Made by a program: the position numbers. From Rhina ancylostomus (lineage: Eukaryota), in assembly GCA_030265395.1 (NCBI GenBank), contig JARFYF010000112.1, positions 75,960,747 through 76,024,746 on the forward strand: a stretch of DNA of 64,000 nucleotides, in the 5' to 3' direction. Every line of letters begins with the position of its first letter. The stretch's first letter is position 1. Shown here one piece after another: positions 61,501-64,000 of this stretch.

Positions 61501-64000
61501 CAGAGTCCATGCTGATCATCAAGTACCCCTTTCCATTAATCCTATACTAATCTCATTTTGTTCTCCCTACATTCCCTTTGACTCCCCCAAGGTACCATCA
61601 CCCACCTGCACAATTACATGGTGAATTACTCTATTAGCCTGCATGCAAGCTGCCACAGGANNNNNNNNNNNNNNNNNNNNNNNNNNNNNNNNNNNNNNNN
61701 NNNNNNNNNNNNNNNNNNNNNNNNNNNNNNNNNNNNNNNNNNNNNNNNNNNNNNNNNNNNGCCACAGGAAAAAAGTGAAAACTCCACACAAACAACACTG
61801 GATTGGTCAGGATTGAACCTGGGTTTCCAGAGCTGCCTTCTGGTCAATGGGTGCTGATAAACCCCTCTTCAGGGTGGCATACTTTACAGGAGGAGTCACT
61901 GGATTTTCCTTTCTCCTGTACAGTGGCACTAAAATCAATTGTAATCGAATAAAATCATTTTATATTTATTTCTATTTTGAACTGTTTTCAACACTGCATA
62001 GAGTAGCTGAGAACTTGTTGGGAAAATCTCTGAGGGACAGAATTAATGATCACTTGGAAAGGCAGGGACCGATCAGAGAAAGCCAGTATGGCTTTATTAA
62101 GGGCAAATTTCGTCTGACCAATCTGACTGTATTTTTTGAGTAAGTAGCAAAGTGCATTGATGAGGGCAGTGCAAAGGATGTGGTTTACATGGATTTAGTA
62201 AGGTCCTCAAAAAGGCCCCATGTTGGATACTAGTCCAAGAGGTTAGGGCCCATGGGATCCAGGGCAAGCTGGCAAATTGGATCCAAAATTAGCTTAGCAA
62301 CAGGAGACAGAGGGTGATGGTAGATGGCTGTTTTTGTGATTGGATGTCTGTGACTGGTGATGTTCCACAGGCAATGGTGCTTGGACCCTTGCTGTGTCTA
62401 ATATACATGAATGATTTGGACGTGGATGTAGGAGGCATGATTAGTAAGTTCACAGATTTATTGATCTACTTCAATCATGTAGATTGATAGTGTGGAGGGT
62501 AGTCTTATGCTACAGGTTGATGTCAATGTGTTGGTGGAATGAGCTGAGAAATGGCAGATGGAGTTTAATAAATGAGGTGATTCATTTTGGGAGTACTAAT
62601 GAGGCTAGGACATATGCCAAGAATGGTAAGGTCAGAGGCAGTACTGAGGAACAGAGGGACCTTGGTGTGCAAGTCCAATGATTCTTGAAGGTGGCAGTGC
62701 AAGTTGATGGTGTGGTTAAGAAGGCACATGGGATACTAGCCTGGGATGGAGCATTGCAGTCATGAGGAGATTCTGGAGAGGCAAAATCTATCTTCCATGG
62801 AGAGGAAGATGTTAAGAGGGAACATGACTGAAGGATATAAAATTGAGGGGTATTGATTGGGTAGACTGTAGGAAACTTTCTTTCCTTTTCAAAGATGATT
62901 AAAGCAAGAGGACATAGATTTCGGGTGAGGGGTAAGAGATTAAGAGAGAATGTAAGGGAGACCTTTCTCAGCCAAAGAATGGTGAGTACCTGGAATGCAG
63001 AAGTGTTTAGATATGCATTTAAATTGCCTAGGCATAGATGGCTATGGGCCAAGTGTCAGAAGATGGGATTAATACGGATTGGTGCTCACTGGTCAGTGTG
63101 GATGTGGTGAACCAAATGGCCTGTTTCCATGCTGTATGACCCTATGACTCCACAACTCATAGGTGTTGAAATTTCAGGAAGGGTGAATTGCTCAGTGCGT
63201 GATATAGTCATCCAGCTCAAATGGTACTTACATTTGTTGTGTTCAATTGACTTATTATGTAAAACTTGCAAGGTAGATTGGCAGCTGGTGATAGAAGTTG
63301 CTCAACTTTTATTTCCACGCACTCTTGTTTCTTACAGGTTATGAACACATCAATCAACAATACAGCACTGCTTCAGTATTATGTTGAACTGTGATCCTAG
63401 GTTATGAACTCAAGTTCTGCTGTTGTGTGAATGATCACTTCAAAATTATAAAGGAGCCTTTAGAATAGGTCATGTGGTCATTATCAGAATATCACTGGAC
63501 TGTGAGGTCTTCACTGGGATTTACATTTTCCTTGAATGCTGTAAAGATTCTACATGTTGAACATAATTGTATTAAGAATTTAATTTATATTGTAATGATG
63601 CAATGCAATGTACATTTGTAGTGCAACACTTAAAATCAATTATTTGTGTTCATTCTGTAGGCTTTCTGATCTTTTGAAGTACAGAATATTTCCACAATAT
63701 GATTTCAGAGAGACACTAAAAAAATCAATAAAATGTGACTGAGTGAAAGGTTGCTGAAGGGAAAGGAGGCTATGGAAAATGGAATTAACAACACAAGGAC
63801 ACCAGACTGCATTGTGAACGGCTCTGTTAAGAAAGCTTCTGACATCTATTGCACTGCAGGAAACAGAAACAAAATGAAGTTCTGTGAATCCAATCCCTAC
63901 CAGATGAAATTCAGTGACAGTGATGGCAGCAGTGAGACAGAGGAAAAAACCCGAGTGGTAACATTCTTCAGTTCCTTTTTTAAAAAAACAAGAGCCTTTG

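What the first reader, a model, noticed from the sequence alone, without database searches (positions are those of the whole stretch)
63643..64000. ORF absent from the track at the window end: possible long-isoform first coding exon of ARHGEF9
Seen: splice acceptor (AG 63659-63660), 111-nt leader with an in-frame ATG-TGA, good Kozak ATG at 63772, and 76 open codons with an acidic patch (SDSDGSSETEE) and an amphipathic/basic stretch RVVTFFSSFFKK. Established: ARHGEF9 lies downstream of AMER1 in the same orientation in human, and the paralogous pairs are AMER2-SPATA13 and AMER3-ARHGEF4, both GEFs having long N-terminally extended isoforms. From memory (unverified), the long ARHGEF4 N-terminus has a similar VVxFxxSFFK stretch. 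Inference: an ancestral long collybistin isoform not described in mammals.
Basis: partly seen in the sequence, partly recalled or inferred. Interest (0 to 1): 0.65.

Follow-up and report, generated by a model that had tools for sequence, protein, structure and literature searches.

The report
Probable coding exon downstream of AMER1
The last 340 bases of the window look like the start of a real protein-coding exon, possibly a long form of the gene ARHGEF9, but which gene it belongs to could not be tested here.

Summary
These are the acceptor AG at 63659-63660, a 111-nt leader with in-frame ATG-TGA, ATG 63772 with G at -3 and +4, and 76 open codons to the window end.

ORF length alone is not evidence. 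The window holds 101 N-free open stretches of at least 76 codons.

Two tests favour real coding:
- **Three-base periodicity.** It starts at the ORF (p 0.00076). It is absent from the leader and upstream DNA. It is the strongest of 383 open stretches.
- **Codon usage.** Scored against the window's own AMER1 gene, the frame ranks 1 of 101.

The stretch is not a repeat.

No homology evidence was obtained. Pfam, PDB, the ESM Atlas and a single-sequence fold gave nothing usable.

The ARHGEF9 assignment rests only on position: 51 kb downstream of AMER1, on the same strand. It also leans on analogy with the SPATA13 long isoform, whose extra 625 N-terminal residues come largely from a big exon 2.

My estimates are about 0.65 that it is coding and about 0.38 that it is a long ARHGEF9 exon.

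The parts
63640..63660 (+). Candidate 3' splice site: pyrimidine-rich tract ending in TAG, AG at 63659-63660, G at +1
   Evidence: Read directly. By my simple rule it has 11 of 16 pyrimidines, Y at -3, G at +1 and no AG in the last 12 nt. There are 81 such sites on both strands of the window, about 1 per 1580 nt.
63661..63771 (+). 111-nt leader (putative 5' UTR part of the exon) with two tiny in-frame upstream ORFs: ATG 63700 to TAA 63720, and ATG 63733 to TGA 63738
   Evidence: It shows no three-base periodicity (purines by codon position 24/20/23 of 37, p 0.61). T content falls and purine content rises at about 63680.
63772..63999 (+). Open reading frame of 76 codons from ATG with G at -3 and G at +4, cut off by the window end
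   Evidence: Purines by codon position are 56/43/33 of 76, chi2 14.4, p 0.00076. The purine fraction at position 1 is 0.737, reached by 0 of 92 comparison ORFs. The locus ranks first of 383 open stretches. Codon log-ratio trained on AMER1 ranks the frame 1 of 101.
63913..63945 (+). Acidic serine-rich patch SDSDGSSETEE (residues 48-58)
   Evidence: Translation. It is strongly periodic on its own. The periodicity of the ORF survives its removal (65 codons, p 0.013).
63952..63987 (+). Basic/aromatic stretch RVVTFFSSFFKK (residues 61-72)
   Evidence: Translation. It has the highest helical hydrophobic moment in the peptide (0.66), but 362 of 2000 shuffles reach that value. AlphaFold2 predicts no helix here.
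9013..12608 (+). AMER1-type gene (context): large coding exon read in three frame pieces separated by masked N runs
   Evidence: Pfam PF09422 AMER, E 2e-75 and 8.6e-09. ORFs. The N runs were left as they are.

Best explanation
The stretch 63661-64000 is the 5' part of a genuine protein-coding exon on the + strand.

Proposed anatomy: a non-coding upstream exon is spliced to the acceptor at 63660. A 111-nt leader with two very short upstream ORFs follows. Translation starts at ATG 63772.

The 76 visible residues would open a low-complexity, probably disordered N-terminal extension. It contains an acidic serine cluster followed by a basic/aromatic stretch.

The most likely owner is the next gene downstream of AMER1 on the same strand, expected from conserved synteny to be ARHGEF9. 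In that case the exon would play the role that the large ATG-bearing exon 2 plays in the SPATA13 long isoform: it adds a long unstructured N-terminus in front of the SH3-DH-PH core, which could change localisation and the autoinhibited GEF activity.

Shown here: the sequence signals and the coding-type statistics. Inferred: splicing, translation, gene ownership and function.
For: 1. **Periodicity.** Three-base purine periodicity begins with the ORF (56/43/33 purines of 76 at codon positions 1/2/3, p 0.00076). It is absent from the leader (p 0.61) and from the two preceding 228-nt blocks (p 0.72 and 0.19). It holds in the first half (p 0.0045) and without the acidic patch (p 0.013).
2. **Rank among open stretches.** I compared 383 open stretches of at least 50 codons outside AMER1, each given its best 76-codon sub-window. 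This locus is first (chi2 15.7; next best 11.8). 0 of 92 ORFs of at least 76 codons reach its position-1 purine fraction or its periodicity index.
3. **Codon usage.** With a log-ratio trained on the window's AMER1, the 87-codon frame scores 0.058, rank 1 of 101. The 92 comparison ORFs average -0.198 (sd 0.097, max 0.047). Cross-validated AMER1 blocks range from -0.019 to 0.311.
4. **Start and acceptor.** The ATG is the first in its frame, has a strong context, and is the only one of 7 such ORFs outside AMER1 with an acceptor-like site within 250 nt upstream.
5. **Composition switch.** T drops from 0.41-0.44 to 0.20-0.25 and purines rise from 0.44 to 0.64 at about 63680.
6. **Not repetitive.** The sequence is unique in the window and is not a tandem repeat.
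7. **Context.** An AMER gene lies 51 kb upstream on the same strand. ARHGEF4/9 are the published neighbours of AMER3/AMER1 (PMC2949870 passages). SPATA13 SP-1277 carries 625 extra N-terminal residues. Seven of the eight further patient variants lie in exon 2, described as the largest exon of the gene, and the first 800 residues are mostly predicted random coil (PMC7233598 passages).
Against: - No homologue was found: Pfam 0 families, no usable ESM Atlas hit, and only a non-significant PDB hit.
- ORF length is unremarkable (101 open stretches of at least 76 codons), and the true length is unknown.
- From the ATG alone, the codon score drops to 0.017. That is below two comparison ORFs (0.047 and 0.044).
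- The Kozak-plus-acceptor combination is expected about once per window by chance, and my thresholds were chosen after seeing the site.
- The peptide has no leucine in 76 residues, which is odd for a protein. This is also why the antisense frame is open for 119 codons.
- The leader has two upstream ATGs.
- AlphaFold2 gives mean pLDDT 52.9.
- No CpG island lies near the exon.
- Periodicity cannot tell the strand, because the antisense frame mirrors it.
- Nothing in the window shows ARHGEF9 itself.
Confidence: 0.38

Rival explanations
1. It is a chance open frame in intergenic or intronic DNA. The acceptor, the start context and the protein-like look are coincidences picked out by a reader scanning 64 kb.
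For: The window holds 52 N-free open stretches of at least 87 codons and 101 of at least 76. Seven strong-context ATG ORFs of at least 76 codons lie outside AMER1. Acceptor-like sites occur about once per 1580 nt. No family, structure or atlas match was found. The fold has low confidence. The amphipathic stretch is not significant. There is no leucine, and the antisense frame is open for 119 codons.
Against: The locus is first of 383 open stretches for three-base periodicity. That periodicity starts at the ORF and not in the leader or upstream. It is also first of 101 by AMER1-like codon usage. 0 of 92 comparison ORFs reach its position-1 purine fraction.
Confidence: 0.33
2. It is a real coding exon of a different + strand host gene, unannotated or lineage-specific, that lies between AMER1 and ARHGEF9. 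It is not a collybistin isoform.
For: The same coding-type statistics apply. Nothing ties the exon to ARHGEF9 except position. A promoter-like CpG-rich segment with a + strand GTGAGT donor lies 26 kb upstream and could belong to any gene.
Against: From recall, human has no known protein-coding gene between AMER1 and ARHGEF9. Published synteny names ARHGEF4/9 as the AMER neighbour. There is no family match that would name another gene.
Confidence: 0.19
3. It is the start of an open reading frame of a transposable element, for example the first ORF of a retrotransposon. It would be coding in origin but not a host gene.
For: The window is full of repeats, and a repeat tail ends about 600 nt upstream (the identification as an element tail is recalled). 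Element ORFs also show periodicity. First ORFs of such elements often have no Pfam family.
Against: There is no second copy in the window at DNA or protein level. The one repeat-like peptide hit (E 0.65) has no DNA support: alignment score 18, against a shuffle mean of 17.2. The acceptor-leader-ATG layout is that of a host exon.
Confidence: 0.1

Closest known systems
SPATA13/ASEF2 long isoform SP-1277 (exon 2-encoded N-terminal extension)
   Same: SPATA13 is a GEF that PMC7233598 describes with an SH3-DH-PH core like the Asef family. Its long isoform has 625 extra N-terminal residues. Exon 2 is the largest exon of the gene, and the N-terminus is mostly predicted random coil (PMC7233598 passages; PMC7955727 passages). 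The layout proposed here is the same kind: an ATG-bearing exon after a non-coding exon that opens a low-complexity extension.
   Different: No sequence comparison was possible, so homology is untested. Only 76 residues are visible here. That SPATA13 lies near AMER2 is recalled; it is not stated in the passages I saw of PMC2949870.
ARHGEF4/ASEF long isoform
   Same: ARHGEF4 neighbours AMER3 just as ARHGEF9 neighbours AMER1 (PMC2949870 passages).
   Different: I could verify neither the long isoform nor the motif. The search listed 3 papers, none about such an isoform judging by title and abstract. PMC7649087 has no mention of isoforms.
Known collybistin (ARHGEF9) N-terminal variants
   Same: Alternative 5' exons giving different N-termini are a known feature of this gene (recalled).
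   Different: The known variants differ by only a few residues before the SH3 domain (recalled). A long extension was not found in print with the searches.

Membership tests
Protein-coding exon (generic criteria) | Open frame from an ATG in good context | tested here: met
   76 codons from ATG 63772, with G at -3 and +4, and the first ATG of the frame. The length itself is not beyond chance.
Protein-coding exon (generic criteria) | Three-base periodicity and codon bias like known coding sequence of the same genome | tested here: met
   Periodicity p 0.00076, rank 1 of 383. Codon log-ratio rank 1 of 101 and inside the AMER1 cross-validated range.
Protein-coding exon (generic criteria) | Conservation under purifying selection in other species | not testable with these tools
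   The protein searches that reach vertebrates were closed. The open collections hold bacteria, archaea, phages and plasmids only.
Protein-coding exon (generic criteria) | Transcribed and spliced at 63660 | not testable with these tools
   No expression data are available. Only a consensus-like acceptor is seen.
ARHGEF9 (collybistin), long isoform | Exon joined to the SH3-DH-PH coding exons | not testable with these tools
   The window ends inside the ORF, and no such exon is visible in the window.
ARHGEF9 (collybistin), long isoform | Lies downstream of AMER1 on the same strand | tested here: met
   The AMER ORF is at 9013-12608 on the + strand (Pfam PF09422), and the candidate is 51 kb downstream on the + strand. 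That ARHGEF9 follows is inferred from published synteny.
ARHGEF9 (collybistin), long isoform | Extension homologous to the long N-termini of SPATA13 or ARHGEF4 | not tested
   No tool gave me those sequences, and sequence from memory is not accepted.
RNase A superfamily (PF00074) | Family profile match, catalytic histidine, full-length single-exon precursor | tested here: not met
   There is no Pfam match at E up to 1. Only three tandem-dimer constructs were hit in the PDB (E 0.03-0.06; each single stretch E 4 or worse), and no monomeric RNase chain was listed at E up to 10. F, not H, aligns with the histidine of the PVHF motif. In-frame stops lie upstream.
Basic-hydrophobic membrane-binding helix (as in the lysine-rich N-terminal motif of AMER1) | Significant amphipathic moment, or similarity to the AMER1 motif | tested here: inconclusive
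   The hydrophobic moment is 0.66, reached by 362 of 2000 shuffles. tblastn of the peptide against the window finds no + strand AMER1 match. No helix is predicted.

The most novel reading that the evidence does not exclude
Collybistin originally had a long, disordered N-terminal extension encoded by a large ATG-bearing exon just downstream of AMER1. On this reading all three AMER-linked GEFs (ARHGEF4, SPATA13, ARHGEF9) inherited it from one ancestral AMER-GEF gene pair. This non-mammalian vertebrate keeps it, and mammals lost it.
Probability: 0.3. Interest if true: 0.45.

Novelty: new member of a known kind. Interest (0 to 1): 0.3.

Why it matters
If the exon is real and belongs to ARHGEF9, the organiser of inhibitory synapses would have an ancestral long form parallel to the long SPATA13 isoform. 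The long SPATA13 isoform localises differently from the short one, and patient variants in it were reported to raise GEF activity (PMC7233598).

That would give a testable idea of what the N-terminal extensions of this GEF family do. It would also suggest what mammals lost.

If the exon is already annotated and was merely clipped by the window edge, the finding is routine.

Tried and rejected
- **Pfam on the 76 residues:** 0 families at E up to 1.
- **PDB sequence search:** only tandem RNase A constructs at E 0.03-0.06, with single stretches at E 4 or worse. I judged this chance.
- **ESM Atlas:** no usable hit.
- **AlphaFold2, single sequence:** mean pLDDT 52.9. I therefore ran no fold search.
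- **ORF length as evidence:** rejected.
- **Amphipathic helix:** not significant.
- **Derivation from a window repeat:** suggested by a peptide hit at 24053-24000 (E 0.65). Rejected, because the DNA alignment scores like shuffles.
- **Tandem repeat as the cause of periodicity:** none found.
- **Rfam:** 0 matches on the whole window, and one E 0.42 lncRNA match near the CpG-rich segment.
- **Pfam on 10 other long ORFs:** 0 families.
- **AMER1 middle part against the PDB:** 0 hits.
- **Literature:** no long collybistin isoform in the searches. No long ARHGEF4 isoform or in PMC7649087.
- **Minus-strand reading of the locus:** 119 open codons, but no ATG and codon score -0.143, rank 32 of 101.

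Full report
**Scope and limits**

The window is not identified, and I did not try to identify it. I do not take it for human. It carries a diverged AMER-family ORF, is strongly CpG-depleted (observed/expected 0.18), and is full of repeats that I recall, without a tool test, as typical of cartilaginous fishes.

The N runs (18 runs, 2474 bases) were left as they are.

The collections that remained open hold bacteria, archaea, phages, plasmids and E. coli, so I did not use them. As a result, the decisive comparison with vertebrate proteins stayed unchecked.

I built and searched no spliced (joined) model. The candidate exon was searched alone.

The synteny figure of PMC2949870 (Additional file 1, Figure SM3) bears on gene order and orientation, and I could not see it.

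**The observation**

- A pyrimidine-rich tract ends in TAG|G, with AG at 63659-63660.
- The leader 63661-63771 is 111 nt. It holds the in-frame ATG 63733 / TGA 63736.
- ATG 63772 has G at -3 and G at +4.
- 76 codons run to 63999 without a stop.
- The peptide is MENGINNTRTPDCIVNGSVKKASDIYCTAGNRNKMKFCESNPYQMKFSDSDGSSETEEKTRVVTFFSSFFKKTRAF.
- The codon-aligned antisense frame is also open (119 codons, 63643-63999) but has no ATG.

**Is it more than chance?**

Length is not. Among 6715 N-free stop-to-stop stretches in six frames, 101 have at least 76 codons and 52 have at least 87.

Strong-context ATGs (R at -3, G at +4) that open at least 76 codons occur 13 times. Six are inside AMER1 and seven outside, including this one.

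With a simple acceptor rule met by 81 sites on both strands, the chance of one in a 240-nt interval is about 0.14. Only the candidate, of the seven, has one. About one such configuration is therefore expected per window by chance, and the rule was tuned after seeing the site.

Two statistics do set the locus apart.

*Periodicity.*
- Purines at codon positions 1/2/3 number 56/43/33 of 76 (chi2 14.4, p 0.00076).
- The same test gives p 0.61 for the leader, and p 0.72 and 0.19 for the two 228-nt blocks before the acceptor.
- It gives p 0.0045 for the first half of the ORF, 0.11 for the second half, and 0.013 after removing the acidic patch.
- No tandem repeat explains it.
- Against 92 comparison ORFs of at least 76 codons (N-free, outside AMER1 and outside this locus), 0 reach the position-1 purine fraction of 0.737, and 0 reach the composition-corrected periodicity index of the 76 codons. 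Only 1 reaches that of the 87-codon frame.
- Against 383 open stretches of at least 50 codons, each allowed its best 76-codon sub-window, the locus is first. Its chi2 is 15.7, shared with its own antisense mirror; the next is 11.8.

*Codon usage.*
- A codon log-ratio trained on the 1177 AMER1 codons, against the window's trinucleotide background, ranks the 87-codon frame 1 of 101 (0.058; next 0.047 and 0.044).
- The 92 comparison ORFs average -0.198 (sd 0.097). Cross-validated AMER1 blocks average 0.132, with a range of -0.019 to 0.311.
- From the ATG alone the score is 0.017, which would be fourth.

The two statistics are not independent of each other, and periodicity cannot tell the strand. 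The strand call rests on three things: the start codon, the codon score (antisense -0.143, rank 32 of 101) and the look of the two peptides.

Base composition changes at about 63680, close to the proposed exon start. T falls from 0.41-0.44 to 0.20-0.25 and purines rise from 0.44 to 0.64. However, 8% of 340-nt windows are as purine-rich.

**What it is not**

- It is not a repeat within the window. blastn found nothing better than E 0.16.
- A peptide hit to a repeat-derived frame at 24053-24000 (E 0.65) has no DNA support: score 18, against a shuffle mean of 17.2.
- It matches no Pfam family and no ESM Atlas cluster.
- The PDB search listed three tandem RNase A constructs at E 0.03-0.06. Each single stretch has E 4 or worse, no monomeric RNase chain was listed at E up to 10, the catalytic histidine position aligns with F, and the frame has stops upstream. 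I treat this as chance.
- AlphaFold2 without an alignment gave mean pLDDT 52.9 with a few low-confidence strands and no helix over the basic stretch.
- The hydrophobic moment of RVVTFFSSFFK (0.66) is reached by 362 of 2000 shuffles.
- The peptide has no leucine, which is unusual under either reading.

**Context**

An AMER-family gene occupies 9013-12608 on the + strand (PF09422, E 2e-75 for the middle piece). It is read in three frame pieces across masked runs. The candidate lies 51 kb downstream on the same strand.

Passages of PMC2949870 state that ARHGEF4/9 neighbour both AMER1 and AMER3. Those passages do not name SPATA13.

Passages of PMC7233598 and PMC7955727 give the following on SPATA13:
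- It encodes SP-652 and SP-1277.
- The long form has 625 extra N-terminal residues.
- Exon 2 is the largest exon and carries most of the patient variants.
- The first 800 residues are mostly predicted coil.
- The long form localises to nuclear speckles.
- Variants in it raised GEF activity.

For ARHGEF4 I found no support: one search listed 3 unrelated papers, and PMC7649087 does not mention isoforms.

The searches turned up no description of a long collybistin isoform. This covers only the held open-access library and the terms I used.

**A possible upstream partner**

The only CpG-rich spot in the window is 37201-37900 (observed/expected up to 1.14, against 0.18 window-wide). Its core, 37397-37649, contains the following (the motif names are recalled):
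- AAGATGGCG at 37462-37470
- TGACGTCA at 37535-37542
- a + strand ACT|GTGAGT donor, with GT at 37554-37555
- on the minus strand, ATG|GTAAGT, with GT at 37410-37409

This could be a promoter with a non-coding first exon feeding the acceptor at 63660 across a 26-kb intron.

However, the core sits inside a repeat copy whose two halves are contiguous in another copy at 48745-48813. It may therefore be a younger insertion or an internal part of an element. Rfam gave nothing. I offer this as a lead and do not count it as evidence.

**Verdict**

| Reading | Estimate |
|---|---|
| Coding in origin (all three readings below) | about 0.65 |
| 5' coding exon of a long ARHGEF9 isoform | 0.38 |
| Exon of another host gene | 0.19 |
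| ORF of a transposable element | 0.10 |
| Chance frame | 0.33 |

The proposed mechanism is an N-terminal disordered extension that modulates localisation and autoinhibition of the GEF core. It is inferred by analogy with SP-1277 and is not shown.

Noticed in passing
window 37397-37649 (wider CpG-rich zone 37201-37900): This is the only CpG-rich segment of the window (observed/expected about 1, against 0.18 overall). It has promoter-like motifs, a + strand GTGAGT donor at 37554 and a minus-strand ATG|GTAAGT at 37413-37405. It lies inside a repeat copy whose halves are contiguous in the copy at 48745-48813, so it is either an insertion or an internal element part. Rfam found nothing.
   Followed up: partly
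window 63799-63924 (residues 10-50 of the ORF): There is a weak likeness to the C-terminal half of pancreatic RNase A (DC...C...CE.NPY), seen only against tandem-dimer PDB constructs. There is no Pfam match and no histidine at the catalytic position. I judged it chance.
   Followed up: yes
window 9013-12608: The AMER1 reading frame changes at the masked runs 9520-9529 and 10844-10853 (10 N each), so the gene reads as three frame pieces. A 41-N run at 9233-9273 lies inside the first piece.
   Followed up: no
window 62448-63150: Overlapping long open frames lie on both strands (157 codons on the minus strand at 62585-63055, and 81 on the plus strand at 62865-63110). The plus-strand peptide looks like the tail of a retroelement common in cartilaginous fishes; that identification is recalled. 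Pfam found nothing for the 157-codon frame.
   Followed up: partly
window 29911-30656, 48961-49512, 50536-51204: Copies of one repeat family, with shared peptide frames such as QSVQHGIHVL, flank three of the larger N runs.
   Followed up: no
window 53624-54553, + strand: A cluster of open frames with moderate periodicity (chi2 9.6 and 10.2) includes a strong-context ATG at 54224 opening 109 codons. The translations look unlike proteins, and Pfam finds nothing for the one frame tested, 54161-54550.
   Followed up: partly
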